Source: an uncultured Myxococcales bacterium
GTDB lineage: Bacteria > Myxococcota_A > Polyangia > DRWM01 > JAAZOP01
Length of the DNA: 59,248 nt
Reading direction: 5' to 3'
NCBI GenBank assembly: GCA_964568275.1
Contig: CAZMRP010000003.1
Span: 1 to 59,248 of the forward strand
This document shows, one piece after another, positions 18,406-58,877 of this stretch (positions are counted from its first letter, which is position 1; each line of letters begins with the position of its first letter). A program made the position numbers and the translations under genes. The notes under the pieces were generated by a model. The model was not told the origin of the DNA. It saw only the letters and a list, made by a program, of their open reading frames with translations, and searched no databases.

Positions 18406-18592
18406 CCGTCGCACGCGAAGAGGGAATCGGGTGATGGGGATCGTCCTGGGCTCGTCGTTCTGGAATGAGCGGACCCCTGGAGCCGTTGCCGGGGATGATG
18501 GCGACGGGGATGGTGGCGACGCCGAGACGACCGATGGTAGCCTGTGACTCCGTCTGGTCGGGCGGGTCGCGCACAAGAGAGAGGTCCACGCC

Positions 18593-19558
18593 ATGGGGAA
18601 GTCAGGGCAGTACGGGCAGGTGGCGCTGCTGAAGGTCGGCTGGGCTGAGGAGTACACGGGCGACGTGGTCCTCGGTCGTCACAAGTACATCAAGGCATAC
18701 GGCGACGCGCACGAGCGGTTCAACTTCCTGCGAGCGCCGGACGGCAGGCTGTACGGGTACGTTCATCCGGTCGGAGGCCAGCGCAGCGCACCCCGACCCG
18801 CCCAGCCGACGGGATGGCTCGTTCTGTTCGTTGCCCCGCTCGAGGGAGATGGGCCCTTGGTGCCGGTTGGCTGGTACGAGAACGCGTGCTTCGAGGACGA
18901 GTGGCGACCGCGGCCCGAGTACGATGAGCGCGAGCCGCTCCCCCTCGATACCGACGGAGATCCGTACACGTTCATCGTCCACGCGGACGACGGCTCCCGA
19001 GTGCCACGCGAGCGCCGAACACGGTACATCGTCCCGGGGCGCCCCCACTTCGGCCGCACGCCGATCCTCTATGTCCGTGGCGTCGCCGGGGACGGAGCGG
19101 CGTGGCGACGGCGGTACGCGGCGATTGCCGAGGCCGTGATCCGGGGCGAGACCTCATCCCGGCGACCGCCGTCGTTTTCGGGAACGGCTGGTTTCGCGGA
19201 CGCCGCGCATTCCCGGAAGGTCGAACGAGCTGCGGTCCGGGCCGTCCGACGGATCCTCAAGAGGCGAGGCTACGAGGTTGTCGATCGCCAACGCGACCGC
19301 TGCGGCTACGATCTGCTCGCCAGGCGTGGACGTGCTCCCGCGGAGCTGCACGTCGAGGTCAAGGGAACCAGTTCATCGGAGCCGCACTTCTTCATGACGC
19401 CCAACGAGAAGGCGTACATGGCGGACCCGAGATGGCGACTCGGAATGGTCACGAACGCCGTGGCGCGGCCCAGTTGCCGGTTGTTCACCCTTCGGCAGGC
19501 AGAGGCGGCGTTCGTCTTGAGCCCGCTCGTGTGGGAGGGGCGACAACGATCCCCGTAG
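18593..19558 (+). CDS. DUF3883-like (NO VEIN C-terminal / Mrr-type PD-(D/E)xK) domain protein with an unknown N-terminal domain
   Basis: C-terminal RGYEVVDRQRDRCGYDLLA...ELHVEVKGTSSSEPHFFMTPNEKAYM matches the GYD...EVKG...F.lT.NE pattern of DUF3883. GAGAGAGG RBS. Confidence 0.7.
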   Translation: MGKSGQYGQVALLKVGWAEEYTGDVVLGRHKYIKAYGDAHERFNFLRAPDGRLYGYVHPVGGQRSAPRPAQPTGWLVLFVAPLEGDGPLVPVGWYENACFEDEWRPRPEYDEREPLPLDTDGDPYTFIVHADDGSRVPRERRTRYIVPGRPHFGRTPILYVRGVAGDGAAWRRRYAAIAEAVIRGETSSRRPPSFSGTAGFADAAHSRKVERAAVRAVRRILKRRGYEVVDRQRDRCGYDLLARRGRAPAELHVEVKGTSSSEPHFFMTPNEKAYMADPRWRLGMVTNAVARPSCRLFTLRQAEAAFVLSPLVWEGRQRSP

Positions 19559-19602
19559 GGTGGACGTCGCGAGGCAGAGGACATCGGCGCGGAGGAGCCG
19601 TG

Positions 19603-19854
19603 ATGATGGAACCGTTGATGACCGTGTCCGAGATCGCGGCCCTCCTTCGTGTCGGACGTTCGACCGTGTACGCCCTGGCGACCGCTGGGAAGCTGCCGGC
19701 GCTGAAGGTCGGCGGCGTTCTGCGGTTCGATCCCGGCGAGGTCCGCGCATGGCTCACTGAACAGCACGTCGTGCCGCGTGAGGAGGTTGTCTCGCCCCGA
19801 GCGAGGAGGAAGATGATGTGCGAGCAGCGGCTCGCGACTGCTCCGACTGGTTGA
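19603..19854 (+). CDS. excisionase/AlpA-type helix-turn-helix DNA-binding protein
   Basis: MTVSEIAALLRVGRSTVYALATAGKLPALKVGGVLRFDPGEVRAWL. GGAGGAG RBS 5 nt upstream. Confidence 0.75.
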   Translation: MMEPLMTVSEIAALLRVGRSTVYALATAGKLPALKVGGVLRFDPGEVRAWLTEQHVVPREEVVSPRARRKMMCEQRLATAPTG

Positions 19855-20348
19855 GGATGCCGCATCGTTCCCGTCCTCTCCCGGAATGCCGGAGGCCCCG
19901 ACCAACGTGCACGGTATCAGCAAGGCGACGCGCCCAATCGAGCATCTGGTCGATCTCGACGAACTGGCGGCGATCGCGGAAGGGCGGGACGGGCGCTCGT
20001 GCAAGGCGGACCGGGGAACTGGGCGGAGATGTCCGGTGAAGCGGTTGCGGGCTGGGAGAAGGCCCGAGTAGAGTCCAAGCGACGACCGGGATCGGGTCCC
20101 CACGAAACGGCGTTGCCCCAACAGGGCGTGATTCCGTGCTGTTCGTGCATGTGGGGACCCGTGCCTCCGCGCTGGCGTTCGCGAAGGCCTGCGGGTGCGG
20201 GCCGGGTGCGGTCGGTTCGCGGCGCGGATGAAGCCGGACAACCTCCGGCGCGTCTGTGCGTGCGGGCGAGGCTGGGCTGGCAGATCGGCGCGGTGGTCGT
20301 CGTGGTGGAGAAGGCGTGGCGCGCCGCGCGGACTTCGGGAGGCATTGC

Positions 20349-21404
20349 TTGAGTCTGACGAAGCGCGTGATCGAGAGGATGGACCCGGTGGCGCGGGCCA
20401 GGATCGAGGCGGACTTGTTCGACCGGACGATGGGCGCCCTGGCCGAAGCGGACTACCGTGCCCGGGCGCTGGATCCTGTCGGCCCGGTGGCCTCGGTGCC
20501 GCGCGTTCGGCGCCTTCCGAAGAACGTCTGCTTCCTCGACATCGAGACGAGTTCGACGAGCTTCAAGTCCCCCGAGCGGTCCGTGATCGCGATCGTCGGC
20601 TTGATGTTCTATCGCCTTGCCGGGACCGGATACCGGTTCGTTCGACACGAGGTGTTCAGGAAGGACGATCTGCCTCGTCTCCGGCAGCGCCTGGTCTCCT
20701 TCCGCGGGGTGATCGTCGGCCACAACGTCTTCGGATTCGACTTCCGGGCTCTCCGCGCGCGGATCCCCCTCGACGGGATCATCGAGAAGTCCGCTGACAC
20801 GCTCGTCTGCCTCTACGAGTTGAACGGCCGCCAGTTGCATGGAACCGGCCTCGACGGCGTCTGCCGCGCCAACTTCAACGCGGGGAAGACGCTGCCGGGC
20901 AGGACGGTATCCGCGGCGTGGCGGGCTGGCCAGCACGCGAAGGTCGTCGCCTACAACAAGAACGACCTCCTTCTCACCAAGATGCTCTGGTGGCAGATCG
21001 TGAAGAGGCGCGTCGTGGAGATCCGCCGGCTCAACAGGTTCGGCGACGTGATCGCCAGCGTCGCGGGCCGCGTGACCGCGTCGACCCTGGGGCCGCTGCT
21101 ATGCAGCCCCAGCCTGTTCACGCTCGACGCCTGGACCGAGCGGCTCGCCGAGGAGGGTTCCATCCTGGTCAAGAACGGGCCGCTGACGATCTCTTCTCCC
21201 AGCGACGAGGACCTGGATCCCGCGGACCATGTTCCGATCCGCCGCTGCGAAGCGTGCGATTCCCCGCGGCTGCGTCGGCTTGAAGCGGACGACCTCGATC
21301 TGGACGACGCGACCGAAGGGCAGCTCGCCGAGTACCTTTCCGGGAACTGGGGCGGTGTTCTCTGCCTCGACTGCGGGAACGTGTCGTCGTGGGAGCAGCT
21401 GTAG
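20349..21404 (+). CDS. DEDD-family (RNase H-fold) 3'-5' exonuclease with a C-terminal CxxC...CxxC zinc ribbon
   Basis: Exo motifs FLDIETSS, GHNVFGFDFRAL and YNKNDLLLT. C-terminal CEACDS...CLDCGN. TTG 20349 is preceded by GGGAGG at 6 nt; an alternative ATG is at 20379. Confidence 0.75.
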   Translation: MSLTKRVIERMDPVARARIEADLFDRTMGALAEADYRARALDPVGPVASVPRVRRLPKNVCFLDIETSSTSFKSPERSVIAIVGLMFYRLAGTGYRFVRHEVFRKDDLPRLRQRLVSFRGVIVGHNVFGFDFRALRARIPLDGIIEKSADTLVCLYELNGRQLHGTGLDGVCRANFNAGKTLPGRTVSAAWRAGQHAKVVAYNKNDLLLTKMLWWQIVKRRVVEIRRLNRFGDVIASVAGRVTASTLGPLLCSPSLFTLDAWTERLAEEGSILVKNGPLTISSPSDEDLDPADHVPIRRCEACDSPRLRRLEADDLDLDDATEGQLAEYLSGNWGGVLCLDCGNVSSWEQL

Positions 21405-21447
21405 GTGGTCGCCTGCCTTACGCGTATCGCGGAGGGCCCTTCGGAGG

Positions 21448-22209
21448 TCACGGTGGCAGGAACATGTCTGGCTCCGGCTTCGCGGCCTTCAACGCCATCC
21501 AGGGTGACATCAACGACTTCTCGACCGTCGCTCGCTGCCAATCCAGGAGACGCATCAAGCGGCGCTTCTGCAGCGCGATCCACCGCTGAACGTTGCCCGT
21601 GCTCTCCGCGGCGATCTTCGCCCAGCGATCTTGGAAGAGCTCGCCGAGCACGTATTCGATGGCGCCCATGGGCGTGACGAACAGGCTCGGAAGCCGCGGA
21701 ACCGAGACGGACTTCGGGAATGGCGGCGCCTCCTGATCACCCAGCACCTGGACGTGGAAGTAGCAGCCGGGAGAATTGGCGTCGCCGAGTTCCATGCGCC
21801 ACATTCCAATCGAAGCTCCGTCGTCGGCGTCGAGGAAGCGGACCCGCGTGGATGCGATGCCGCTGAACTTGATCAAGCGCTTCTGTCGCTCCTTCGGTTT
21901 TCGGGCGCTTGGTCCTTCCGGCCGGACATCCCAGGTTCCGGAGACGGAGGCAGCCACACGTCTTGCCCCCCGCCGGCTTCCCGGCTCGTACTCGCCCTCG
22001 CTCACGACGGTCCGGATCTCCCGAAGCTCCCAGCGGAAAGCACGATGCGCCGCAGCATCCCACAGCCCTTCGAGATCCTCTCCCAACTGCCGCAGTACGT
22101 GGGAGAAGCGGGAGTCGATGAGCGGGCTTGAGATGTCCTGCAGTATCTGGATCTCCTCCACGAGATCGCGGAACGCGAACAGCAGCTGCCCGGCCGTTCC
22201 CGCAGGCAT
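21448..22209 (-). CDS. hypothetical protein (253 aa), last gene of the MTase/two-component operon
   Basis: The ORF has normal composition. Its ATG overlaps the TGA of the upstream receiver gene (TGATG). I recognise no motif. Confidence 0.7.
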   Translation of the reverse strand: MPAGTAGQLLFAFRDLVEEIQILQDISSPLIDSRFSHVLRQLGEDLEGLWDAAAHRAFRWELREIRTVVSEGEYEPGSRRGARRVAASVSGTWDVRPEGPSARKPKERQKRLIKFSGIASTRVRFLDADDGASIGMWRMELGDANSPGCYFHVQVLGDQEAPPFPKSVSVPRLPSLFVTPMGAIEYVLGELFQDRWAKIAAESTGNVQRWIALQKRRLMRLLDWQRATVEKSLMSPWMALKAAKPEPDMFLPP

Positions 22210-23351
22210 CAGTCGTCAACCTCCTCAACGTCCACGCGGCCCGCGTCCATCGGATCGACCAGCGCCGTCAGGAAGGAGTCGTCCTTCGCACGCGCGATTG
22301 ATGTCCATGCATGGTCCGCAAACGCTGGCCACTGGTCCGGCAGGAGGCGCACCGCTTCATCGGCGGAGAGGTACTCTCCGGTCGGCCTCAAGTCGGCCCC
22401 CAGGCAGACGACGGATGCCTCCGCGGGCAACGGCTCGAGCCGTACCGCTGTGCGCTTTCGAAGCGCCGCGTGGAGAGTCCCGACGTCGAGAGACTTGCCA
22501 CTCGTCAGGTTCCACACGTACTCCTCGAGGGCGGCTCTCCACCACCGGCCCCCCAGGAAGCCGGCCAGGAGCCCGTGGTACCCGAACGACTTCAGGTCGC
22601 TCGCGAGCGTTCCGTTTTCGCTCATGACCGCGAGCAACGTACCGGGCGTGAGGCGAAGACGAGCGGCCACCCATTCTTCGCTCAGCAAGAAGCACGGGTA
22701 CGGCAGAACCTGGTGGAGCAGCCACCGAACGAACAGCACGCCGTGAGCACCGCCGCTCAGATCGTGGACTGGCGGCTGGCATGCACGTACGTTCCGCCTG
22801 CCACGATCAAACCAGGACGCCTTCGCGTCGAGGCCGAGGAGCTTCAACGTTTCCGATTCTGCCGCCGCGGAATCGCCCTGCGGCCAGCAGCGGGGGAGGC
22901 TCCCGACGGCATCCGCGAGGACCACCATCTGCGTCCACTTGCCGGTGTCGCTCTTGGAAAACGCCCACTCCAGATCGTGGAGCCGAGCGACGACGTGTTC
23001 GCCGCTGCTGGCTGGAAGCCGCCCGCGAACCTGGTCGAGGTGGGCCGAGTACAACGCAAACGCGGTGAGACGGTCCTTGCCGGAGCGGTCTGCATGTTCC
23101 CGAAGCACCGCCGCCAGCGCGAGGCCCGACGCAGGTCGCATCGCGAGGCTCGCTTCGCCACGCTCGGCCCAATCATCGAGAACGTAGTCCACCAGGACAA
23201 GATCGGCCTCCTCGAGGTGACGCTGTTCGACCTCTCGCGGGTGGAGCACCTCGAAGCGCGCCCGGCCCTGCAAGCCGAGAGTCATCTCGCTGCGAAGCGA
23301 GTCGACATCGTCGTCGACGGCAAGGACTAGCGGCAGGTCGGAAGCAGCCAT
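22209..23351 (-). CDS. receiver (REC)-domain protein with an unknown C-terminal domain of about 250 aa
   Basis: N-terminus LPLVLAVDDDVDSL...ADLVLVDYVLDDW...AFALYSAH fits the CheY-like acidic pocket, phospho-Asp and Ser/Thr pattern. GAGGAAG RBS sits 7 nt before ATG 23351. The upstream Arg-rich extension was rejected. Confidence 0.7.
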   Translation of the reverse strand: MAASDLPLVLAVDDDVDSLRSEMTLGLQGRARFEVLHPREVEQRHLEEADLVLVDYVLDDWAERGEASLAMRPASGLALAAVLREHADRSGKDRLTAFALYSAHLDQVRGRLPASSGEHVVARLHDLEWAFSKSDTGKWTQMVVLADAVGSLPRCWPQGDSAAAESETLKLLGLDAKASWFDRGRRNVRACQPPVHDLSGGAHGVLFVRWLLHQVLPYPCFLLSEEWVAARLRLTPGTLLAVMSENGTLASDLKSFGYHGLLAGFLGGRWWRAALEEYVWNLTSGKSLDVGTLHAALRKRTAVRLEPLPAEASVVCLGADLRPTGEYLSADEAVRLLPDQWPAFADHAWTSIARAKDDSFLTALVDPMDAGRVDVEEVDD

Positions 23352-23364
23352 GTTGGACTTCCTC

Positions 23365-25677
23365 TCATCCCGGGAAGGTAATCTCGATGGCCGTTGCGTA
23401 CCGCCGGCTCGGCCTGACGAAACGGACCTCGGCCCCATACTCCCTGAGAACGGACCGCGTGATCGGAAGACCAAGGCCCATCCCTTGGCCGAGCGCTGGG
23501 TCGAGCTCCGTGGTTGTGGACTCGAAGGGACGGAACCAGCGTTCCGACTCGACGAGCTTGACGGCCACACCCGTGTTCTCAATTCGGACCCGCAGGTTCC
23601 CCTCCGGATCAGAGGACGTCGACGCACGGATTTCGCCATCCATTCCTGCAGCCTTGACGGCGTTGGTGAGCAGATTCGCGAGAACCGTAGTCACCTCCGC
23701 GGCGAACATGGGGGGCGTCCTCGCATCGGGGGAGATGTCGTTCACGATGCGGGTGCGCCGCCGCTCGGCTTGGTGCGACACAAGGCTCACGGCGGCATCG
23801 AAGCGGTCCGCCAAGCGTTGGCGGGATCGACGGCGCCTCGCGTCGGGCGTGACGACGTCGGTCAAGTACGATGCCTGCCTCTCGAGTCCTCGGCGAAGGT
23901 CGGACACGGCCGCCAGGAGTGCCCTGAGTCTCCGACGATGCGGCCGCGCAAGCGTGTCGTCTGCGGCGATCTCCCTCAAGGCCTCTTCGACCGTTCGCGA
24001 GGCGCCGAGCAGCGCGTTGATCTCGTGGACAAAGGCGGCCATCTGCGTGCCAACGGACGCGACGACCCGGAACAAGGACTGCTCCGAAATGAGGTCCTCT
24101 GCGGCTCCTCGAGCCTCGGTGAGCCGTCGCCCGGCCTCGTCGTGTGCCCTGCCCGCCGCCTCAATATCGCCGGACGCCACAAGCGAGCGCGCTTGATGGA
24201 GGAGAGCGGCCGCCTCGCCGATTCCTGCGCGGACATCCTGGCTTGGCGGGGCCTCAGCGCCTTCGCCCCCTTCCTCGTGTTGAGTGCGACCGCTGGTTGC
24301 TCTCTGCTGCTTGCGCTCCTGCCGGCGGAGGTAGGCAGCCGAGGCGCGAACGCGGGTGCACAGGTCGACGCCCGTCCGAACGAGCGACACCAGAACGTCG
24401 AAGCCGGCCTCGGGAACAAACCCCTCGCGATTGACCAGCGCTCGGAGCGAGGCAGCATTCTCCTGCGTCAAGAACACCGCACCCACGTAGTTGTTGTTTG
24501 GAAGCCGAATCAGTCCTTCATCCTCGTCCTGAGCGGTCGGGAGTTGGCCCGAGCTCTCCCATGCACGCAACATCTCAAGCTGGCGCTTGCGGCCTGTGTA
24601 GTCCAAGTCGATGGACAGCCAATCGTCCTTGGGCTCCCCATACGGAAGAACACGAAAACCCTCGAGGTACACGCGAATGCCACTCGAGCGGCTCGCCCAG
24701 ACCCGTTGGTCCTGCTTGCCCTGGAAGCGGCCCTCTCGGACCAGGATCCGAGCATCGAAGAACGGTCCACGCTTGGGCGATGGATGGTCCAGCGTCGTCC
24801 GAGAAGGGCGTGCTTTGGGGTTGTCGCGGAGGGCGCGCCTGGTGGGCGCGATAGAGTAGTGGACCTTCCCGTCGCGCAACGCGCGGACCTCGAGAACCCA
24901 GCTCGCCGTCTGCGCGACAAGCTGCCAGTACTCGTCGCCCGATGCGAATTCGCCTTCAAGCAGAACCGCGAACTCGTCGGTTCCGCCGGATGAGGAAGGC
25001 TCACGAATGAGCGGCGACTCGAACAGGAGAGGTTGCCTGACGACGCTTGGCGGAAGCCCCTGTTTCAGAAAAGAAGGGGCGTCAAACGACTGAACCTCAG
25101 CGAAGAACCGTGCGCGCTCCACAGGAGTCCACGACCGCCGCAGGCGCGAAAGCACGATGGTTGTGCCCGGACGCGCCTTCGGGGAAGCAGGAACCGGCTC
25201 GTCAACCACGATCGCATCCGCGGCGTCAAGGTCATCGAGCGTCGCGCAAGCCTCCACCTTGTCCCAGTCGATGACGGCCTCCAGAACATCTCGAGGGTCG
25301 CCTGCAGATGACGCCCACGGAATGCTCTTGATCTCCAGTCGGCGGGCGAGCTTGTGCGCCGCCAGCCGCCCGATGCCCTTGGCCCCCGTGTAGCGCCGCC
25401 CAAGGCGCGCCGAGCGCCTGTCGCGCTCCTCCTTGATGCGAGACGCTACTCGGAGGAACCCGTCATCGAACAGGCGGCGTGTCATTCCGGTGCCGTTGTC
25501 CGTGACGATGATGCGGCCGGCATCCGGGTCGTTGAGGCGCTCCCCGTAGACGGTGACGGTGGTAGCGTCGGCATCGTAGGAGTTCTTGACGAGTTCGACC
25601 AGCGCCGTCGAATCGCGCCCAACAAGTAGTTCGCCGAGCTCGCGGAAAAGGTGGGTGTCGACGGTGAACTTAGGCAC
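23365..25677 (-). CDS. fusion protein: N-terminal MORC/Hsp90-like GHKL ATPase plus C-terminal histidine-kinase core (H-box plus HATPase_c); no TM segments
   Basis: N-terminal Bergerat motifs ELVKNSYDADA, IIVTDNGTGMT and GAKGIGRLAAHK. C-terminal H-box AAFVHEINALLG, N-box LANLLTNAVKA and G-box GQGMGLGLPITRSV. GTG 25677 has GGAGG 5 nt upstream and overlaps the MTase stop by 8 nt. Confidence 0.8.
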   Translation of the reverse strand: MPKFTVDTHLFRELGELLVGRDSTALVELVKNSYDADATTVTVYGERLNDPDAGRIIVTDNGTGMTRRLFDDGFLRVASRIKEERDRRSARLGRRYTGAKGIGRLAAHKLARRLEIKSIPWASSAGDPRDVLEAVIDWDKVEACATLDDLDAADAIVVDEPVPASPKARPGTTIVLSRLRRSWTPVERARFFAEVQSFDAPSFLKQGLPPSVVRQPLLFESPLIREPSSSGGTDEFAVLLEGEFASGDEYWQLVAQTASWVLEVRALRDGKVHYSIAPTRRALRDNPKARPSRTTLDHPSPKRGPFFDARILVREGRFQGKQDQRVWASRSSGIRVYLEGFRVLPYGEPKDDWLSIDLDYTGRKRQLEMLRAWESSGQLPTAQDEDEGLIRLPNNNYVGAVFLTQENAASLRALVNREGFVPEAGFDVLVSLVRTGVDLCTRVRASAAYLRRQERKQQRATSGRTQHEEGGEGAEAPPSQDVRAGIGEAAALLHQARSLVASGDIEAAGRAHDEAGRRLTEARGAAEDLISEQSLFRVVASVGTQMAAFVHEINALLGASRTVEEALREIAADDTLARPHRRRLRALLAAVSDLRRGLERQASYLTDVVTPDARRRRSRQRLADRFDAAVSLVSHQAERRRTRIVNDISPDARTPPMFAAEVTTVLANLLTNAVKAAGMDGEIRASTSSDPEGNLRVRIENTGVAVKLVESERWFRPFESTTTELDPALGQGMGLGLPITRSVLREYGAEVRFVRPSRRYATAIEITFPG

Positions 25678-27394
25678 GCCTGCCTCCGTTCCGCTCAGGA
25701 AGACGCTGGGCTGCGAGGCCCCGGCGGGCGAGCTGAAGCCTGGCAACGTCTCGGCGCGAGGCCCCGAGGCCGAGACGAAGTACCATCTCGTCGGCGTACG
25801 AGCGGGCGGCGTCCTCCCTCCCTGCGCGGATCAGCGCAGAGCATTCGCGAAACACCGCGTCTGCAGAGTCGACTAGGGGTACGGGCATTCGCCGCAGTGC
25901 GCCCGGCTCCAGCTTCAGCACGCCGCCACCATATCGACGGCCGTTGACCTCGGCCCAGAGCGCCGAGAGGCTCGTGAGAACGCCAACCGATACAGCCTCC
26001 GGTTCGGCCGAAGGAACGCCGTTCCATGTGACCGCGTGAAGCGCGTTGCTGCAGCGAAGGCCAGCGTGGTTGAGGACGAGCAGAGGAGGCCCCAGGCGTG
26101 AACACGTGGCGAAGGCATCCGGGGCCGGGCCCAACTTGACGCGAAACCACGGCAGACGCCCGCGGCACTTGAAGCGTCGGTGGACACCCTCCTCGACACC
26201 CTGGGCAACCCACGCATCGACTGCCGGGTTCGTGGTCAACCACTGGGCAGGCCTGACGAGGACGGTCCGTCGGCCGAGTTCGGTCAACTGACTGTGGTCG
26301 TCGTGGGTGAAGTTGAGCCCGCTCAACCACTGGGTCCTTGCAACGACCGGGACCAGCGCGCGGGCGGGAATGCCCGCCCGACTTGCTTCCAGGCGGCTGC
26401 GGACGAAGAAGTGGTTTGCGCCCGTGACGAATCCGATCCGAATGGTCGCCAGTTGCCCGAGGGGAGCCACGCTGTCTGCGGACGAGAGGTCGTCAAGGAG
26501 GGCCAAGGCGGCGGAGTCAACAACGCGTGCGTTACTCGTCACCTTCGTGGCTGGGCGGGCGCCAGCTCTCCCGTGTAGCAAGCGGGCGAGCTCGCCCGCA
26601 CGACGAACCGCATGCACGCGCAGGATCCCTGGTCCGGTGCCATGTGCGGCCAGGACGACAACTGGCTCGTCCGTCTCGTTGAAGATGCGATCGCGGAGAT
26701 GGACCAGGAGGACGTCTGCAAACCGGCGCTGGAGGGCGTCACGGACGGGCCTCGCATAGTCGGCTTGAAGGAGAGCCTCGGGGAGAAGGAGTGCAAGCCG
26801 ACCGTCCGGGGCAAGGAACCGCAGTGCGTGGATGACGAAGTAGGCCCACGTGCTCGCGGTGGCCGGAAGGCGGATGCCAGACGCAGCCGCCGCAGAACGA
26901 GCCGCCGAACGCTCGCGTCCCCGCAGCCAATGGTGGCGGACGTAGGGGGGATTGCCGACGATCGCTCGAAAGGGGAGGCCGCGCAATTCGCCGGGTGACA
27001 CGTCCAAGAAGTCGGCCGTCAGGTGGTTTCTCTCCGGCAGGAGCCCGTTGGCGTGATCCACGCAGGCGGGATCGATATCGACCCCGTAGACGAGAGATCG
27101 GGGCCGGTTCGCACGCATCTCGCGTAGAACACCCACAGCGGCGCGGACGAACGAACAGCCGCCGTAGCTTGGGTCGAGCACGGTGCCGGGCCGCGAAGCC
27201 AAGGCCCACCGAGTGAGGACGGTCGCCAGATCATCGGGCGTGTAGAATGCGCCCCGGAGGCGCTGGTCAGCAACTGGACCGTCGCGATGCTGTGCGAGAT
27301 CACGGGCGCCCACCGCCGAGAGCTGGGCCGCGCGAGCGACGCCGACGCGGGGGTGCCGGACGCGTGCGCGTTCCAACGGCTGGATCGGCGGCAC
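25670..27394 (-). CDS. gamma-class N6-adenine DNA methyltransferase (Eco57I/TaqI-like, with a C-terminal target-recognition region)
   Basis: Motifs AFYTP, VLDPSYGGCSF (motif I) and IVGNPPYVRH (motif IV, NPPY). GTG 27394 is preceded by GAGGAGGG at 6 nt; the longest ORF starts at 27415. Confidence 0.85.
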   Translation of the reverse strand: MPPIQPLERARVRHPRVGVARAAQLSAVGARDLAQHRDGPVADQRLRGAFYTPDDLATVLTRWALASRPGTVLDPSYGGCSFVRAAVGVLREMRANRPRSLVYGVDIDPACVDHANGLLPERNHLTADFLDVSPGELRGLPFRAIVGNPPYVRHHWLRGRERSAARSAAAASGIRLPATASTWAYFVIHALRFLAPDGRLALLLPEALLQADYARPVRDALQRRFADVLLVHLRDRIFNETDEPVVVLAAHGTGPGILRVHAVRRAGELARLLHGRAGARPATKVTSNARVVDSAALALLDDLSSADSVAPLGQLATIRIGFVTGANHFFVRSRLEASRAGIPARALVPVVARTQWLSGLNFTHDDHSQLTELGRRTVLVRPAQWLTTNPAVDAWVAQGVEEGVHRRFKCRGRLPWFRVKLGPAPDAFATCSRLGPPLLVLNHAGLRCSNALHAVTWNGVPSAEPEAVSVGVLTSLSALWAEVNGRRYGGGVLKLEPGALRRMPVPLVDSADAVFRECSALIRAGREDAARSYADEMVLRLGLGASRRDVARLQLARRGLAAQRLPERNGGRRA

Positions 27395-27517
27395 TACCGA
27401 CCCTCCTCGCCACACCGAGCTTCGTTCCGGTGTTCGCAGGACTCGCGGGCCGCCCGGGGGACCCCTTCCGTCACGCTAGCTCGACGAGGAGGCATCCCAC
27501 CGAGCCGCGAGAAGAGG

Positions 27518-27760
27518 CTACCCACGACGTGCTCCGTGCCGCTTGGCTGGATGCGGTGTACGAGCCGGCCGGGTGCCTCTCCCATGCACTTCCAGCTTCC
27601 TCTCCTCGATCCAGCGGTCCAGATCGACCCGCTTGAATCGCCAATGACCTCGGATCCGGAACGCGGGCAACTCGCCGAGTTGAGCCATGGAGTAGACGGT
27701 CTTCTCCGCCAGCTTGAGCAGTCCTGCGACGTCCTTGATGGTGAGGACCTCGTCGGTCAT
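27518..27760 (-). CDS. excisionase/MerR-like HTH DNA-binding protein (likely operon regulator)
   Basis: LTIKDVAGLLKLAEKTVYSMAQLGELPAFRIRGHWRFKRVDLDRWI. GAGGGAG RBS 7 nt upstream. It is the first gene on the minus strand, divergent from hsdR. Confidence 0.8.
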   Translation of the reverse strand: MTDEVLTIKDVAGLLKLAEKTVYSMAQLGELPAFRIRGHWRFKRVDLDRWIEERKLEVHGRGTRPARTPHPAKRHGARRG

Positions 27761-28131
27761 TCACGGACTCCCTCGGCTAGCGGTCCACCCGAGTCGCCCC
27801 AGTTCCAACGCAGGGTATCCTATTCCAACTCCACGGCGTCAACAACTCCTGGTCCGGCATGCCGTACCGGGGCGCCGCGCGGGCGAGGCAGTCGGGCTTC
27901 TGCCATCCCAACGGGCGTCGCCCATCGGCCACGGCATGGATGCGGAGCTGGGTCCTGCCCGGGCCGGTGCGGTCCTCTCCATCGGGCTGCTCCGTGCTGT
28001 TGCGGGATGCCCTCGCGCTCCGTTACCATTCCGATCGCCAGCATGGACTCCGCGGCCAATCTCGATGTCGTGTCCACGTGTCGGCGGGTCCCACCGTCGG
28101 CGACGCACGATGTGGCGCTCCGAGGCTGCCG

Positions 28132-30498
28132 ATGAACGAAGCCGACACCTGCCGCAAGTACGTCGTCCCGAAGCTCCAGGCGGCCGGGTGGGACCAGGAG
28201 CCGCACGTCATCAACGAGCAGGCGACCTTCACGGACGGCCGGATCGTCGTGGCGGGACGGAAGGCGCGGCGGCGGGTTGGGAAGCGCGCCGACTACCTGC
28301 TCCGGTACCGCCCGGACATGCCGATCGCCGTGGTCGAGGCGAAGCCGGAGTACAAGACGCCGGGCGAGGGGCTCCAGCAGGCGAAGGAGTACGCCGAGAT
28401 CCTTGGGCTGAAGTTCGCGTACGCCACCAACGGCCACGGCATCATCGAGTTCGACTGCACTACCGGCGTCGAGCGCGAGATCGACAGCTTCCCGACGCCG
28501 GACGAGCTGTGGTCGCGCCTCTGCGGCGAACAGAAGCTCGTGCCGGAGCAGGCGGATCGACTGTTGACGTCCGGCTACGGCCTGGCCGGCAAGGCGCCCC
28601 GGTACTACCAGACGATCGCGATCAACCGGACGGTGCAGGCCGTCCTTCAGGGGAAGCGGCGCATCCTGCTCACGATGGCGACGGGCACCGGCAAGACGCT
28701 CGTCGCCTTCCAGATCTGCTGGAAGCTGTGGACCTCGCGCTGGAACCGCGACGGGGGACACCGGCGGCCGCGAATCCTGTACCTGTCCGATCGGAACATC
28801 CTGATCGACGACCCCAAGGACAAGACGTTCGCGCCGTTCGGTGATGCCCGCTGGAAGATCGAGGACGGCGTTGCCCAGCGCGGCCGCGAGATGTACTTCG
28901 CCATCTACCAGGCGATCGCACGCGACGAGCGCCGCCCCGGCCTCTACCGCGAGTACCCTCCCGACTTCTTCGATCTGATCATTGTGGACGAGTGCCACCG
29001 CGGGAGCGCCGCCGACACCAGCAACTGGCGCGAGATCCTCGAGTACTTCGAACCGGCGCTCCAGATCGGCATGACGGCGACGCCCCTCCGGAAGGAGAAC
29101 GCCGACACGTACCGCTACTTCGGCAAGCCGATCTACACCTACACGCTGCGGCAGGGCATCGAGGACGGGTTCCTCGCGCCCTACCGCGTCCACCGGATCA
29201 TTACGACCTGGGACGCCGCCGGCTGGCGCCCGAGCCAGGGCGACGTCGACCGCTACGGGCGCGAGATCCCGGACGAGGAGTACCAGACCCGCGACTTCGA
29301 GCGCACGGTCGCGCTCCGTGCCCGGACCGAGGCGGTGGCGAACCACCTCACCGGGTTCCTCAAGGCCACCGATCGCTACGCCAAGACGATCGTGTTCTGC
29401 GTGGACCAGGAACATGCCGACGAGATGCGCCGTGCGATCAACAACCGCAATGCCGACCTCGTGCGGAAGGCCCCCGACTACGTCTGCCGGGTGACCGCCG
29501 CCGAGGGCGACATCGGCCGCGGCCACCTCTCCAACTTCCAGGACGTCGAGAGGGCGACCCCCGTCGTCCTTACGACGTCGCAGATGCTGACCACGGGGGT
29601 CGATGCGCCGACCGTTCAGAACGTCGTCCTGGTGCGCGTCATCAACTCGATGACGGAGTTCAAGCAGATCATCGGCCGTGGTACCCGCGTCCGCGACGAC
29701 TACGGCAAGCTGTACTTCAATATCCTGGACTACACCGGCTCGGCGACGCGGATGTTCGCGGACCCGGAGTTCGACGGCGACCCGTCCATCGAGACCGAGC
29801 AGGAGATCGACGAGGCCGGGGCCCCGAAGGAGCCCGAGACGGTCGTCTACCCCGAGGCAGAGGAGGACGACCTGCCGCACATCTCCGCAGAGCCCCCGGA
29901 GGTCTACGGGTCGCCGGGGTCCGAGCGCCGGAAGTACTACTTCGACGGCGGGCAGGTCGCCATCGCCTCGCAACTCGTCTACGAACTCGACCCCGACGGG
30001 AAGCAGCTCCGGGTCATGCACTTCACCGACTACACCGCCGAGAAGGTCCGGACGCTGTTCCGGAACGCTGCTGCGCTCCGCGGGGAGTGGGCCGACCCGG
30101 TCCAACGGCGCGACATCATCGAGCGGCTCGCCGAGCGTGGCATCGACTTCGACGAGCTGGCGGACGCGGCGCAGCTTCCTGAGGCCGACCCGCTCGACCT
30201 GATGTGCCACCTCGCGTTCAACGCGCCCCTGCGCACGCGGCGGGAGCGGGCGCAGCGGCTGCGCCGGGAGGAGCGGGAGTTCTTCGAGCGCTTCGGCGCG
30301 GAGGCGCGCCAGATCCTGGACGAACTCCTGGACAAGTACACCGAGCACGGCACGGCGCAGTTCGTCCTGCCGGACGTTCTTGAGGTGCCGCCGATCAACG
30401 CGCATGGTACCGTCCTCGACATCGCCCGCCACTTCGGCGGCGAGGGCAACCTCGTCGAGGCGGTGAACCGGCTCCAGACGCTGCTCTACGCGGCGTGA
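28132..30498 (+). CDS. hsdR: type I restriction enzyme R subunit
   Basis: N-terminal NEADTCRKYVVPKLQAAGW, helicase motifs MATGTGKTLVAFQ (Walker A) and IIVDECHRGS (DEAD-box II), and later TSQMLTTGVDAP and QIIGRGTR motifs. Confidence 0.9.
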   Translation: MNEADTCRKYVVPKLQAAGWDQEPHVINEQATFTDGRIVVAGRKARRRVGKRADYLLRYRPDMPIAVVEAKPEYKTPGEGLQQAKEYAEILGLKFAYATNGHGIIEFDCTTGVEREIDSFPTPDELWSRLCGEQKLVPEQADRLLTSGYGLAGKAPRYYQTIAINRTVQAVLQGKRRILLTMATGTGKTLVAFQICWKLWTSRWNRDGGHRRPRILYLSDRNILIDDPKDKTFAPFGDARWKIEDGVAQRGREMYFAIYQAIARDERRPGLYREYPPDFFDLIIVDECHRGSAADTSNWREILEYFEPALQIGMTATPLRKENADTYRYFGKPIYTYTLRQGIEDGFLAPYRVHRIITTWDAAGWRPSQGDVDRYGREIPDEEYQTRDFERTVALRARTEAVANHLTGFLKATDRYAKTIVFCVDQEHADEMRRAINNRNADLVRKAPDYVCRVTAAEGDIGRGHLSNFQDVERATPVVLTTSQMLTTGVDAPTVQNVVLVRVINSMTEFKQIIGRGTRVRDDYGKLYFNILDYTGSATRMFADPEFDGDPSIETEQEIDEAGAPKEPETVVYPEAEEDDLPHISAEPPEVYGSPGSERRKYYFDGGQVAIASQLVYELDPDGKQLRVMHFTDYTAEKVRTLFRNAAALRGEWADPVQRRDIIERLAERGIDFDELADAAQLPEADPLDLMCHLAFNAPLRTRRERAQRLRREEREFFERFGAEARQILDELLDKYTEHGTAQFVLPDVLEVPPINAHGTVLDIARHFGGEGNLVEAVNRLQTLLYAA

Positions 30499-30509
30499 AC
30501 GGGTGAACG

Positions 30510-32099
30510 ATGGCAAGATCGAGGAAGCCGAGGGCCGACGCCCAGCCGCAGACCACGGCGCAGCAGCTCGGCAGCGTGATCAAGAGCGCCCGGGACATCA
30601 TGCGGAAGGACAAGGGGCTGTCGACGGACATCGATCGCCTTCCGCTCCTCACCTGGGTGATGTTCCTCAAGTTCCTCGACGACCTGGAGCAGATCGAGGA
30701 GTCGAAGGCGAAGATGCGCGGGGAGCGGTACCGGTCGGCGATCGAGCGGCCATACCGCTGGCGCGACTGGGCGGCGCAGCCGGACGGCATGACCGGGCCC
30801 GAGCTCCTCGCCTTCGTCAACCTGGAGAGGGCCACCCGGCCGGACGGTACGGAGGGTGCGGGCCTTCTCGCGTACCTCCGCGGGCTCCAGGGTGGCAACG
30901 GGAGCACGGTGAGCCGGCGCCGCCGAGTCATCGCCGCGGTGTTCAAGGACATCACCTGCCGGATGCTCTCGGGCTACCTGCTGCGCGACGTCGTCAACAA
31001 GGTGAACGGCATCCACTTCCTGGCGAAGGAGGAGCTGTTCACGCTGGGCCATCTCTACGAGACGATGCTGCGCGAGATGCGCGACGCTGCGGGCGAGAAC
31101 GGGGAGTTCTACACGCCGCGACCGGTCGTCCGGTTCATGGTGACCGTGACCGACCCGCGGCTCGGGGAGACGATACTCGACCCGGCGTGCGGGACCGGCG
31201 GTTTCCTCGTCGAGGCGTACCGACACCTCGAGCAGCAGTGCAAGACCGTCGGCGATCGGAAAACGCTCCAGGAGAGGAGCCTCCTTGGCGGCGAGGCGAA
31301 GCCGCTCCCGTACCTCCTCTGCCAGATGAACCTCCTGCTCCACGGCCTGGAGGCGCCGCAGATCGACCCCGAGAACAGCCTGCGGTTCAAGCTCTCCGAG
31401 ATGGGCGACGCCGATCGTGTCGACGTGATCCTGACGAACCCTCCCTTCGGCGGCGAGGAGGAGGCGGGCATCAAGGGCAACTTCCCGGAGGACATGCAGA
31501 CCGCGGAGACCGCGCTGCTGTTCCTTCAGCTCATCATGCGCCGGCTGCGGCGGCCCGGGCGCGGGTCCGAGCGCGGCGGGCGGGCGGCGGTCGTCGTTCC
31601 CAACGGCACGCTGTTCGGCGACAAGGTGTGCGCTCGGATCAAGGAACAGGTCCTCAAGGAGTTCAATCTGCACACCGTGGTCCGGCTGCCCAACGGCGTC
31701 TTCGCGCCGTACACGCCGATCCCGACCAACCTGTTGTTCTTCGATCGCTCGGGGCCGACGAAGGACATCTGGTTCTACGAGATCACGCCGCCCGAGGACC
31801 GGAAGAGCTACTCGAAGACCAAGCCGATGCAGTTCGAGGAGTTCGCCGACTGCATCGCGTGGTGGAGGAAGCGGAAGCCAAACGGCCGCGCCTGGAAGGT
31901 CCGGGCGGAGGACGTGCTGAAGTACGACGCTGATGGGCGGCTCGTTTCGGCAAACCTCGACCTCAAGAACCCCAGCGCGGCCGAGGCGCTCGAGCACCTG
32001 CCGCCCGAGCAGCTCGCCGACGAGATCCTCCAGAAGGAGCGGCGGATCATCGAGATCGTCGAGGAGATCAAGCGCCAGCTCGCCGAGGACGGGCCATGA
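30510..32099 (+). CDS. hsdM: type I R-M N6-adenine DNA methyltransferase subunit
   Basis: N-terminal HsdM domain (DIMRKDKGLSTDIDRLPLLTWVMFLKFLDD), motif I DPACGTGGFL and motif IV LTNPPFGG. Confidence 0.92.
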   Translation: MARSRKPRADAQPQTTAQQLGSVIKSARDIMRKDKGLSTDIDRLPLLTWVMFLKFLDDLEQIEESKAKMRGERYRSAIERPYRWRDWAAQPDGMTGPELLAFVNLERATRPDGTEGAGLLAYLRGLQGGNGSTVSRRRRVIAAVFKDITCRMLSGYLLRDVVNKVNGIHFLAKEELFTLGHLYETMLREMRDAAGENGEFYTPRPVVRFMVTVTDPRLGETILDPACGTGGFLVEAYRHLEQQCKTVGDRKTLQERSLLGGEAKPLPYLLCQMNLLLHGLEAPQIDPENSLRFKLSEMGDADRVDVILTNPPFGGEEEAGIKGNFPEDMQTAETALLFLQLIMRRLRRPGRGSERGGRAAVVVPNGTLFGDKVCARIKEQVLKEFNLHTVVRLPNGVFAPYTPIPTNLLFFDRSGPTKDIWFYEITPPEDRKSYSKTKPMQFEEFADCIAWWRKRKPNGRAWKVRAEDVLKYDADGRLVSANLDLKNPSAAEALEHLPPEQLADEILQKERRIIEIVEEIKRQLAEDGP

Positions 32100-34380: not shown

Positions 34381-34420
34381 ATGGGCCGTCGACAGAATGA
34401 AGAGGGGAACGCGGCCGTCC

Positions 34421-34457
34421 GCCCCGCCCCCGGCCGAAGCCGGGGACGAGGCGGGGC
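34421..34457 (+). terminator. GC-rich compound hairpin downstream of hsdS (terminator-like, no U-tract)
   Basis: Outer stem GCCCCGC (34421-27) pairs with GCGGGGC (34451-57). Inner stem CCCCGGC (34428-34) pairs with GCCGGGG (34439-45), with a CGAA tetraloop. It lies 40 nt after the hsdS stop. Confidence 0.45.
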
Positions 34458-34482
34458 AAAGGCCATGGATCAGGCGGACGGC

Positions 34483-34503
34483 GATAGCCAACGGATAGCC
34501 AAC
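34483..34503. repeat. tandem direct repeat GATAGCCAAC x2 (1-nt spacer)
   Basis: Read directly: GATAGCCAAC-G-GATAGCCAAC. Confidence 0.8.
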
Positions 34504-34508
34504 TTTTC

Positions 34509-34545
34509 GTGACGCTGGGTGACGCTGTGTGACGCTGTGTGACGC
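34509..34545. repeat. tandem 10-nt repeat GTGACGCTGN, about 3.7 copies
   Basis: Read directly: GTGACGCTGG GTGACGCTGT GTGACGCTGT GTGACGC, ending 7 nt before the tRNA-like element. Confidence 0.85.
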
Positions 34546-34552
34546 GAAGTCC

Positions 34553-34640
34553 GCGGGACTCCTCGAATTCGCCAATGGTTCCAAGGGGTCATGTTGCCTT
34601 GCCAAGGTGGACGTCGCGGGTTCAAATCCCGTCTCCCGCT
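34553..34640 (+). other. tRNA-like fragment (canonical T-arm and acceptor 3' strand; 5' two-thirds do not fold canonically); probable integrase att core
   Basis: GCGGG-TTCAAAT-CCCGT T-arm followed by CTCCCGC-T. The upstream GCGGGAC at 34553 gives 6 of 7 acceptor pairs, with U8 present. I could not draw a canonical D-arm or a 7-nt anticodon loop. The position next to a tyrosine integrase fits a tRNA-derived att site. Confidence 0.45.
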
Positions 34641-58858: not shown

Positions 58859-58877
58859 CAACCACCTCCGGCCGGAT

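What the first reader, a model, noticed from the sequence alone, without database searches (positions are those of the whole stretch)
23365..25677. One polypeptide carries two GHKL-type ATPase modules: a MORC/Hsp90-like head and a histidine-kinase core
SEEN: N-terminal ELVKNSYDADA, IIVTDNGTGMT and GAKGIGRLAAHK form a Bergerat fold of the MORC/HATPase_c_3 type. A helical, charged linker of about 250 aa follows. The C-terminus carries the H-box FVHEINALLG, the N-box LLTNAVKA and GQGMGLGLPITR. There are no TM helices and no PAS or GAF motif that I can see. KNOWN: MORC-like GHKL ATPases are DNA clamps or compactors and occur in several conflict systems, while HK cores autophosphorylate. INFERENCE: the MORC-like head could act as a nucleic-acid or ATP-state sensor driving the kinase, which would be an unusual input domain for a two-component kinase.
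Basis: partly seen in the sequence, partly recalled or inferred. Interest (0 to 1): 0.7.

Follow-up and report, generated by a model that had tools for sequence, protein, structure and literature searches.

The report
Double-ATPase sensor kinase of a defence operon
The gene really does encode a soluble histidine kinase whose input end is a second, MORC/MutL-type ATPase, but this design is already described and widespread as the sensor of two-component modules attached to DNA-methylase (restriction-modification-like, anti-phage) operons, so this is a divergent new example rather than a new kind of protein.

Summary
Window 23365-25677 (-) encodes a 770-aa cytoplasmic protein with an N-terminal HATPase_c_3 GHKL module, a conserved ~275-aa middle domain, a ~75-aa variable helical linker, and a DHp (H551) plus HATPase_c kinase core. 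The catalytic residues of both ATPase modules and the His are invariant or nearly so (at least 82 of 83) in 83 relatives.

It sits in a five-gene operon: HTH, an Eco57I-like N6-adenine methylase, the kinase, a receiver-domain protein and a 253-aa unknown protein. The operon lies on an integrase-bearing island. The kinase/receiver/third-protein/methylase cassette recurs in many phyla.

The architecture is not new. Bellieny-Rabelo et al. 2021 described HATPase_c_3+HEF_HK+HATPase_c kinases with Response_reg_2 partners next to R-M genes, derived from paraMORCs. A 2025 preprint validated "Ambrosia" (HTH, N6A methylase, HK/Hsp90-like ATPase, REC-wHTH, HNH) as an anti-phage system.

[quoted passage not shown] Its last gene is not a recognisable HNH; its confident predicted fold has no PDB match, and it has an invariant His.

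Verdict: a new variant of a known kind. What the GHKL head senses is still unknown. Interest is moderate to low.

The parts
27518..27760 (-). First gene of the operon: an 80-aa HTH_17 (excisionase/MAD1-like) DNA-binding protein, the likely controller/regulator.
   Evidence: Pfam HTH_17, E 3e-17. NCBIfam MAD1, 75.9 bits against a cut-off of 80. PADLOC mad1, E 4e-10.
25670..27415 (-). N6-adenine DNA methyltransferase, M.Eco57I-like (581 aa), with the NPPY motif. Its stop overlaps the kinase start by 8 nt.
   Evidence: Pfam N6_Mtase, Eco57I and M_Eco57I_C. PADLOC MTase_II, E 2e-85. GNPPY is visible in the translation. The same gene is adjacent in homologous loci.
25153..25677 (-). Kinase residues 1-175: N-terminal GHKL (HATPase_c_3, MutL/MORC class) ATPase module. 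Motifs: I E28-N32-D35-D37; II D60xGxG64; III G98-K100-G101-G103; IV G171-T172.
   Evidence: Pfam E 7e-17. NCBIfam BbrUII/HgiDII restriction-enzyme N-terminus, E 1e-21. PDB profile hits to MutL and MORC2. The motifs are invariant or nearly so (>=80 of 83) in 83 diverse relatives.
24328..25152 (-). Kinase residues 176-450: conserved middle domain of unknown fold (W183, GFRVLPYG 340-347, D352-W353, G399, R417 in VNREGF). Possibly the S5/transducer-clamp part of a paraMORC module.
   Evidence: Conservation. Homologous at 28-30% identity over residues 4-433 to kinases of the C5-methylase/Vsr lineage. No Pfam or PDB sequence match.
24103..24327 (-). Kinase residues 451-525: variable, partly charged helical linker.
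   Evidence: Column identity 0.45-0.51 against 0.6-0.98 elsewhere. Length-variable in the alignment.
23758..24102 (-). Kinase residues 526-640: DHp dimerisation/phosphotransfer helices, with the H-box FVH551E552INALLG (His codon at 24025-24027).
   Evidence: Aligns with the ZraS AHEIRNPL H-box and with HK853 DHp. NCBIfam AtoS/EspC alignments span DHp+CA. H551 is conserved 83/83 and E552 77/83.
23365..23757 (-). Kinase residues 641-770 plus stop: CA (HATPase_c) domain. N-box N668/N672; G1 N701-T-G703 (Asn instead of Asp, as in Thermotoga ThkA); F-box W714-F715; G2 G732xG734xG736.
   Evidence: Pfam E 1e-19. PDB alignments to ZraS and ThkA. Residues invariant or nearly so in 83 relatives (N668 82/83, F715 79/83, the rest 83/83).
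22209..23351 (-). Response-regulator-like protein (380 aa). It has a divergent REC domain (res 1-135: D13 D14, D55, T96, K133) and a conserved ~240-aa C-terminal domain (Y258, G260, R269-W270-W271) with a helix-turn-helix-like stretch at 225-244.
   Evidence: AF2 pLDDT 88, pTM 0.85. Foldseek hits to receiver domains with TMt 0.6-0.7. Invariant residues. No Pfam hit for the window protein. PF19192 is seen only at E>=0.13 in 3/37 relatives, and DUF4423 only weakly.
21448..22209 (-). Last gene: a 253-aa protein of unknown function, always standalone. H152 (in CYFHVQ) is invariant, and P171-R172 nearly so. Candidate effector or accessory partner.
   Evidence: 345 close homologs, none with a Pfam domain. 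535 cluster representatives among 1.84 billion proteins, the listed best 150 mostly about 220-290 aa (a few shorter). AF2 pLDDT 88, with no PDB or BFVD fold match. No HNH or other Pfam family in 139 members.

Best explanation
The 770-aa protein is the cytoplasmic sensor kinase of a methylase-linked two-component defence cassette. It is of the kind described bioinformatically as paraMORC-derived 'HEF_HK/Response_reg_2' systems and validated experimentally in one form as 'Ambrosia'.

Shown by sequence:
- an ATP-hydrolysis-competent MutL/MORC-class GHKL head plus a conserved middle domain sits where sensor domains normally sit;
- it is joined through a variable helical linker to a canonical DHp (H551) and CA domain;
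- the next gene encodes a receiver domain with the full DD-D-T-K signature.

Inferred:
- nucleotide-dependent dimerisation or clamping of the head, on a signal linked to foreign DNA or infection, switches on trans-autophosphorylation of H551;
- the phosphoryl group passes to D55 of the downstream protein;
- the C-terminal (probably DNA-binding) domain of that protein, together with the 253-aa invariant-His protein and the N6A methylase, delivers the output. That output would be either induced expression of the RM-like genes, as in the Ambrosia model, or a direct effector action.

The HTH_17 protein would act as a controller of operon expression.
For: - Domain calls and motif conservation for both ATPase modules and H551.
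- REC fold and signature residues of the downstream protein.
- Tight operon with overlapping or abutting genes.
- The cassette kinase -> REC protein -> third protein, with an Eco57I-like methylase either just upstream or just downstream, recurs from 73% down to ~22% kinase identity. Of 60 loci with enough flank, 53 have the REC protein, 47 the third protein, 49 the methylase and 42 all three.
- Location on an integrase-bearing island of lower GC3, next to a type I R-M system.
- Published precedent for architecture and context: PMC8011034 and PMC2292703.
- Experimental precedent that a five-gene HTH/N6A-MTase/HK-Hsp90-like ATPase/REC-wHTH/nuclease operon defends against phage, needs the receiver Asp and is induced by infection: bioRxiv 10.1101/2025.09.30.679545.
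- Experimental precedent that a GHKL head with a clamp-like middle domain controls a fused effector in defence: VcSduA, PMC12137116.
Against: - No experiment exists on this family.
- No Ambrosia sequences were available, so homology to AbrB-AbrD is inferred from architecture only.
- The fifth gene is not a recognisable HNH nuclease, and no nuclease is identifiable anywhere in the cassette.
- The fold of the middle domain (S5/clamp?) could not be tested (structure jobs exhausted).
- The DNA-binding nature of the REC protein's C-terminal domain rests on weak hits.
- The window proteins do not reach Pfam's HEF_HK or Response_reg_2 thresholds.
- The G1 box has Asn instead of Asp. This also occurs in the solved Thermotoga HK chain 3a0t (ThkA, identified from memory).
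Confidence: 0.6

Rival explanations
1. Classical restriction logic. The kinase/REC/third-protein trio is itself the 'restriction' arm. The GHKL head plus middle domain reads unmethylated target sites, the methylase marks self, and phosphorelay licenses a cryptic nuclease or toxic activity in the REC protein's C-terminal domain or in the 253-aa protein.
For: - The head is most similar to the N-terminus of BbrUII/HgiDII-family restriction enzymes and to PADLOC REase_II models.
- The methylase is the constant companion, whatever its position.
- A sister lineage uses C5 methylase plus Vsr instead, as expected if methylation is the self-mark.
- paraMORCs are proposed R-M motors (PMC2292703).
Against: - No nuclease signature appears in any of the three proteins.
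- In Ambrosia, phage grown on the methylase alone stayed sensitive, so methylation did not protect.
Confidence: 0.2
2. A regulatory rather than defensive module: a two-component system that only tunes expression of the neighbouring methylase or R-M genes (epigenetic or addiction control), in response to intracellular nucleotide levels sensed by the head.
For: - PMC8011034 proposes NTP sensing and control of R-M systems.
- The REC protein has an HTH-like stretch and weak DUF4423/MarR-like hits.
- An HTH controller gene heads the operon.
Against: - The strictly conserved third protein with an invariant His is not explained.
- The cassette travels on islands and plasmids among defence genes: pAgo, type I R-M, Abi, TA.
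- Ambrosia gives direct phage protection.
Confidence: 0.12
3. One of the two ATPase modules is a dead scaffold, so the protein is either an ordinary HK with an inert N-terminal domain or a paraMORC with a pseudo-kinase tail.
For: The G1 box has Asn instead of the usual Asp. HEF_HK proteins lacking one or other HATPase domain exist (PMC8011034).
Against: - E28, N32, D60xGxG, the GxxGxG lid, H551, N672, G703 and the G2 glycines are conserved in 82-83 of 83 relatives, down to ~22% identity.
- The Asn-type G1 box also occurs in the solved ThkA kinase domain.
Confidence: 0.05

Closest known systems
HATPase_c_3 + HEF_HK (PF19191) + HATPase_c kinases with Response_reg_2 (PF19192) partners (Bellieny-Rabelo, Pretorius & Moleleki 2021, Genome Biol Evol; PMC8011034)
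   Same: - The same three-part kinase architecture ('group 1', 174/222 proteins).
- Soluble, with the GHKL head in the sensor position.
- A ~360-430-aa divergent REC protein immediately downstream.
- R-M/methylase neighbourhood and proposed paraMORC origin.
- The head plus middle domain of the window protein aligns at 28-30% identity with kinases in C5-methylase/Vsr contexts of the kind that paper describes (none of which itself reached HEF_HK or Response_reg_2 at E<=0.01).
   Different: - The window kinase and 35 close relatives give no PF19191 hit even at E<=10. Only a 25%-identity relative reaches E 0.008.
- The REC partner gives at best E 0.13 for PF19192.
- The companion methylase is an Eco57I-like N6-adenine enzyme rather than C5 methylase plus Vsr.
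- The conserved third protein was not characterised in that paper.
Ambrosia anti-phage system, AbrR-AbrA-AbrB-AbrC-AbrD (bioRxiv 10.1101/2025.09.30.679545)
   Same: Five genes with the same composition, in the order the preprint lists them: HTH regulator, type II-like N6-adenine methylase, sensor HK/Hsp90-like ATPase, REC protein, then a fifth gene. In Ambrosia the receiver Asp is essential and expression is induced by infection.
   Different: - The regulator here is HTH_17, not HipB-like XRE.
- The fifth gene is not a detectable HNH.
- Ambrosia is reported in Gammaproteobacteria, whereas this family is in a window of ~70% G+C whose closest homologs come from metagenome-assembled Acidobacteriota, Gemmatimonadota, Poribacteria and others.
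- No Ambrosia sequence was available, so homology was not tested.
paraMORC/MORC GHKL+S5 ATPases of R-M systems (Iyer, Abhiman & Aravind 2008; PMC2292703), including the validated paraMORC3-type Shedu VcSduA (PMC12137116)
   Same: An N-terminal HATPase_c_3-type GHKL with intact motifs I-IV, followed by a conserved middle region and a C-terminal output module. Both have methylase/R-M gene neighbourhoods. In VcSduA the head's catalytic Glu is required for defence.
   Different: The output module is a histidine-kinase transmitter instead of a nuclease or TIR domain. The S5 fold of the middle region was not verified here.
MADS, methylation-associated defence system (bioRxiv 10.1101/2023.03.30.534895)
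   Same: The operon opens with a MAD1-like HTH_17 protein followed by an N6A methylase with weak MAD2 similarity.
   Different: MADS is an 8-gene, ~22-kb operon defined by MAD6-8. None of the window's other proteins hits a MADS model.

Membership tests
GHKL (Bergerat-fold) ATPases, N-terminal module | Motif I ExxxNxxDA, motif II DxGxG, motif III GxxGxG lid, motif IV Thr. | tested here: met
   E28/N32/D35/D37, D60-G62-G64, G98-K100-G101-G103 and G171-T172 are all present. They are conserved in >=80/83 relatives. Pfam HATPase_c_3, E 7e-17.
MORC/paraMORC (GHKL+S5) ATPases | An S5-fold transducer domain directly after the GHKL domain. | tested here: inconclusive
   A conserved 275-aa domain follows the head.
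MORC/paraMORC (GHKL+S5) ATPases | Gene neighbourhood with DNA methylases or R-M components. | tested here: met
   The methylase is adjacent in the window and in 49 of 60 evaluable loci.
Class I histidine kinase transmitter | DHp helix carrying a phospho-accepting His in an H-box. | tested here: met
   H551-E552 aligns with the His of the ZraS AHEIRNPL H-box motif. H551 is conserved 83/83.
Class I histidine kinase transmitter | CA domain with N, G1, F and G2 boxes. | tested here: met
   N668/N672, N701-x-G703 (Asn for Asp, as in ThkA 3a0t), F715, G732/G734/G736. Pfam HATPase_c, E 1e-19.
Class I histidine kinase transmitter | Autophosphorylation and phosphotransfer to a cognate receiver Asp. | not testable with these tools
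   Circumstantial only: the adjacent REC protein has D13/D14/D55/T96/K133.
Pfam HEF_HK (PF19191) | Match to the family model above the gathering score (24.1 bits). | tested here: not met
   No hit at E<=10 in the window protein or in 35 relatives. A 25%-identity relative scores 17.1 bits, E 0.008.
Pfam Response_reg_2 (PF19192), for the downstream protein | Match to the family model above the gathering score (27 bits). | tested here: not met
   The window protein gives no hit. 3 of 37 relatives score about 12-13 bits, E>=0.13, over the phospho-Asp region.
Ambrosia defence system | HTH regulator + N6A methylase + HK/Hsp90-like ATPase + REC protein in one cluster. | tested here: met
   for the window, compared with the preprint's description. 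Sequence homology to AbrR/A/B/C was not testable because no sequences were at hand.
Ambrosia defence system | Fifth gene is a type IV HNH endonuclease (AbrD). | tested here: not met
   No HNH or any consistent Pfam family in 139 members of the third-protein family. No His-Me finger or other PDB fold match for a confident model.
Ambrosia defence system | REC protein carries a winged-HTH output. | tested here: inconclusive
   Helix-turn-helix-like secondary structure at 225-244. Weak DUF4423 and MarR_2 hits in relatives. Foldseek of the whole model was dominated by the REC domain.
MADS | Presence of MAD6, MAD7 and MAD8 (mandatory in the authors' model). | tested here: not met
   Only MAD1-like (75.9 bits against 80) and weak MAD2 hits. 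No MADS hit for the kinase, the REC protein or the third protein.

The most novel reading that the evidence does not exclude
The kinase/REC/third-protein trio may be a self-contained core that is independent of methylation chemistry. It is found with N6A (Eco57I-like) methylases in this lineage. In weakly similar form it also occurs with C5 methylase plus Vsr in the sister lineage.

In this reading the 253-aa protein is a new kind of effector, methyl-mark reader or phosphorelay partner, not an HNH nuclease. It has an invariant His152, nearly invariant Pro171-Arg172 and a confident fold with no PDB or BFVD match. The paraMORC-like head would be the direct sensor of foreign DNA state.
Probability: 0.3. 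Interest if true: 0.6.

Novelty: new variant of a known kind. Interest (0 to 1): 0.4.

Why it matters

This window adds a divergent lineage with a high-G+C example (~70% G+C). The lineage escapes the existing Pfam models (HEF_HK, Response_reg_2) and the PADLOC v2.0.0 models. It shows that the kinase, the receiver protein and a small invariant-His protein form a conserved core whose methylase partner and position vary.

Three questions are open and now testable with defined point mutants:
- What does a MutL/MORC-type ATPase sense when it drives a histidine kinase?
- What does the third protein do?
- Is methylation a self-mark or part of the weapon, as Ambrosia suggests?

The practical value is better annotation ('sensor histidine kinase' and 'hypothetical protein' hide a probable defence system) and better HMMs for defence-system finders.

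Tried and rejected
1. **MADS membership.** Only the HTH (near cut-off) and a weak MAD2 hit were found, with no MAD3-8. Rejected.
2. **Any PADLOC system.** The only hits were REase_II models, for the head alone, plus MTase_II. Nothing was found for the REC protein or the third protein.
3. **Pfam HEF_HK/Response_reg_2 membership.** Below threshold.
4. **Third protein as an HNH or other nuclease.**
   - PDB profile search: only a chance-level hit, 2k4v, E 0.66.
   - Foldseek against PDB and BFVD: nothing below E 0.04.
   - Pfam on 139 members: nothing consistent.
   - Representative search: a closed family of 535 clusters, with no fusions among the best 150.
5. **Middle domain of the kinase.** A profile of 27 diverse sequences found nothing in PDB or Pfam, so S5/transducer identity is unproven.
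6. **hhalign of the family profiles against single distant sequences.** This gave low probabilities, although the alignment to the Hymenobacter REC protein covered 266 columns, including the DD, D and RWW motifs. Offline HMM searches against the C5/Vsr-lineage partners gave only positionally consistent weak hits, E 0.001-6. Homology of the whole trio across lineages is therefore suggestive, not shown.
7. **Regulatory DNA.**
   - No sigma-70-like promoter or intrinsic terminator in 21300-27950.
   - Only short, imperfect palindromes between the HTH gene and the methylase. Not informative.
   - No tRNA in the window to mark the island's attachment site.
8. **Ambrosia protein sequences.** These could not be obtained from the preprint text.
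Full report
**1. The observation**

It is preceded by GGAGG at a 7-nt spacing. It reproduces the MAKF/MPKF N-terminus of the homologs. It overlaps the stop of the upstream methylase by 8 nt, exactly as in homologous loci. The product is 770 aa.

Pfam finds HATPase_c_3 at residues 24-118 (E 7e-17) and HATPase_c at 662-769 (E 1e-19), with no PAS, GAF or other sensor domain. The highest 19-residue hydropathy is 1.14, so there is no membrane helix.

**2. Anatomy of the kinase**

*The head.* It has the full Bergerat signature:
- motif I: E28-N32-D35-D37;
- motif II: D60-G62-G64;
- motif III: G98-K100-G101-G103;
- motif IV: G171-T172.

It is closest to the N-terminus of BbrUII/HgiDII-family restriction enzymes (NCBIfam, E 1e-21). 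Among solved structures it is closest to MutL and MORC2.

*The C-terminal third.* It aligns over DHp+CA with AtoS, ZraS and HK853. H551 of FVHEINALLG falls on the His of the AHEIRNPL H-box motif of ZraS, the canonical phospho-acceptor position. The N, F and G2 boxes are canonical. The G1 box reads N-T-G, the same Asn variant as in the solved Thermotoga HK chain 3a0t (ThkA).

*Conservation.* In an alignment of 83 relatives reaching down to ~22% identity, all these catalytic positions and H551 are conserved in 82-83 sequences. Both ATPase modules and the phospho-His are therefore under selection.

Residues ~120-450 are a conserved globular region (GFRVLPYG, DDWL, VNREGF with R417 invariant). Only ~451-525 is variable. 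Profiles of this middle region find nothing in PDB or Pfam. Its expected S5/transducer nature is therefore unverified. The resemblance of VNREGF/R417 to the Hsp90 middle-domain catalytic Arg loop is my recollection and only a lead.

**3. The operon**

Five tightly packed minus-strand genes run from 27760 to 21448:

| Coordinates | Product | Evidence |
|---|---|---|
| 27518-27760 | HTH_17/MAD1-like protein | |
| 25670-27415 | M.Eco57I-like N6-adenine methylase with NPPY | |
| 23365-25677 | the kinase | section 2 |
| 22209-23351 | 380-aa REC-like protein | below |
| 21448-22209 | 253-aa unknown protein | below |

*The 380-aa protein.* It has no Pfam hit, but its AF2 model (pLDDT 88) has an N-terminal receiver fold (Foldseek TMt 0.6-0.7 to many REC domains). 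It carries the DD/D55/T96/K133 signature. Its ~240-aa C-terminal domain is conserved (Y258, G260, R269-W-W271). That domain contains a helix-turn-helix-like stretch, with only weak DUF4423/MarR-like hits in relatives.

*The 253-aa protein.*
- It folds confidently (pLDDT 88), but nothing in PDB or BFVD resembles it.
- His152 is invariant in 139 members and Pro171-Arg172 nearly so.
- The family is small and the listed members are all short, single-stretch proteins of about 170-290 aa: 535 clusters among 1.84 billion representatives.

*Setting.* The operon has lower third-position GC (0.74-0.79) than the flanks (~0.9). It lies in an island of ~18.5-36.2 kb that also holds a type I R-M system, a NOV_C protein and a tyrosine integrase.

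**4. Conservation elsewhere**

More than 120 full-length homologs at 56-73% identity exist across phyla. They are named only 'sensor histidine kinase'.

A scan of species-representative genomes matched 599 stretches, of which 589 were confirmed. The 80 best were kept, nearly all matching the full length, from Actinomycetota to Bacteroidota, Campylobacter, CPR and an archaeon.

Iterated HMMs built here were scored on 60 loci with enough flank:

| Component found | Loci (of 60) |
|---|---|
| REC protein, directly downstream | 53 |
| Third protein | 47 |
| Eco57I-like methylase | 49 |
| All three | 42 |

The methylase sits either just upstream of the kinase or just downstream of the third gene. 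Plasmid copies show the same cassette, sometimes with a GIY-YIG nuclease or a pAgo nearby.

A sister lineage has the same dual-GHKL kinase, a ~400-aa REC-like protein and a ~220-aa third protein next to C5 methylase plus Vsr. Its partners match my profiles only weakly, but at consistent positions.

**5. What is already known**

- Iyer et al. 2008 defined paraMORCs as GHKL+S5 ATPases of R-M systems with varied C-terminal effectors.
- Bellieny-Rabelo et al. 2021 described exactly this kinase architecture: HATPase_c_3 + a DHp they named HEF_HK + HATPase_c, in 174 of 222 proteins. [quoted passage not shown] They described an adjacent divergent receiver (Response_reg_2) and over-representation of R-M genes, and proposed a paraMORC origin.
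- A 2025 preprint validated 'Ambrosia' in Pseudomonas. It comprises an HTH regulator, an N6A methylase, an HK/Hsp90-like ATPase, a REC-wHTH protein and a type IV HNH nuclease. All five are required, the receiver Asp is essential, and expression is induced by infection. Methylation did not protect phage.
- VcSduA shows experimentally that a GHKL head with a clamp-like middle domain can gate a fused defence effector.

**6. Mechanism**

The best-supported reading (confidence ~0.6) is as follows. The paraMORC-type head and middle domain are the input. They couple nucleotide-driven dimerisation on an infection- or DNA-related cue to autophosphorylation of H551 and transfer to D55 of the next protein. 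Output then goes through that protein's C-terminal domain, the third protein and the methylase.

What is shown: the domain architecture, catalytic-residue conservation, the cognate REC protein, operon coupling, cassette conservation and the mobile/defence context. What is inferred: the nature of the signal, the direction of control and the output.

Rivals:
- a classical self/non-self R-M logic with a cryptic nuclease (0.2);
- a purely regulatory NTP-sensing two-component system (0.12);
- one dead ATPase module (0.05, contradicted).

**7. Membership**

| Family | Result |
|---|---|
| GHKL head and class I HK core | met |
| paraMORC | context met; S5 fold untested |
| Ambrosia | four components met by architecture; the defining HNH gene not met |
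| MADS | not met |

The locus works like these systems but should not be filed as a member of PF19191, Ambrosia or MADS.

**8. Verdict**

It is a new variant of a known kind: a divergent lineage with a different terminal gene. Interest is about 0.4.

The residual interest lies in three places:
- the unsolved question of what a MutL/MORC-type ATPase senses when it drives a kinase;
- the third protein, with its invariant His and unmatched fold;
- the fact that current Pfam and PADLOC models miss this widespread lineage.

Noticed in passing
window ~18500-36200: Probable integrated mobile/defence island. Third-position GC is lower than in the flanks. It has a tyrosine integrase at 34991-36172 (-) and an excisionase-like HTH_17 segment at the C-terminal end of ORF 19102-19854 (+). 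It carries two R-M-like systems. No tRNA gene in the window marks the attachment site.
   Followed up: partly
window 27859-34380 (+): A type I R-M operon, hsdR (27859-30498), hsdM (30510-32099) and hsdS (33184-34380), has a YhcG/DUF1016 PD-(D/E)xK nuclease gene (32096-33187) inserted between hsdM and hsdS. It is transcribed divergently from the kinase operon.
   Followed up: partly
window 21448-22209 (-): The 253-aa last gene of the operon has a confident predicted fold (helical hairpin, five long antiparallel strands, C-terminal helices) with no PDB or BFVD match. Its most conserved motif (PFPKSxPIPRLPS, with P171-R172 nearly invariant) lies in a low-confidence loop, which suggests a docking peptide. 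H152 is invariant in 139 members.
   Followed up: yes
window 18593-19558 (+) and 20256-21404 (+): A NOV_C/DUF3883-domain protein (weak PADLOC HmaA/TmtA C-terminal hits) and a 382-aa RNase H-like/DEDDh-like protein lie in the same island. The latter converges on the end of the kinase operon. Neither is conserved next to the cassette in other loci.
   Followed up: partly
window 23575-23583 (kinase residues 699-701) and homologs: The G1 box of the kinase CA domain is N-T-G, not D-x-G. The same Asn is present in the solved Thermotoga kinase ThkA (3a0t). The glycine is invariant in 83 relatives.
   Followed up: partly
L013-L018, L044, L050, L057-L063 and others, compared with window, L001-L004, L036, L038: The Eco57I-like methylase gene changes place between lineages. 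It is immediately upstream of the kinase in some, and immediately downstream of the third gene in others (sometimes on the opposite strand). The kinase -> REC -> third-gene order is fixed.
   Followed up: yes
L086 10528-11190, L069 10482-11192, L080 10134-10805, L078 10397-11050, L074 10388-11065: In the sister lineage with C5 methylase plus Vsr, a ~220-aa gene follows the REC-like gene. At least one example (L086) carries a 'YWHVQL' motif resembling the window protein's 'CYFHVQV'. The profile hits are weak (E about 1-2) but fall on the same region.
   Followed up: partly
L009 (Hymenobacter plasmid NZ_CP014303.1) 213-5850 and L005 (Rhizobium pTH2c) 11118-12047: The cassette sits beside other defence-type genes: a Piwi-domain (pAgo) protein with a 1119-aa DNA methyltransferase in Hymenobacter, and a GIY-YIG nuclease directly after the third gene in Rhizobium sp. 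TH2.
   Followed up: no
window 58616-58861 (-): A third HTH_17-like small ORF in the window, similar to the operon's first gene (phmmer hit).
   Followed up: no
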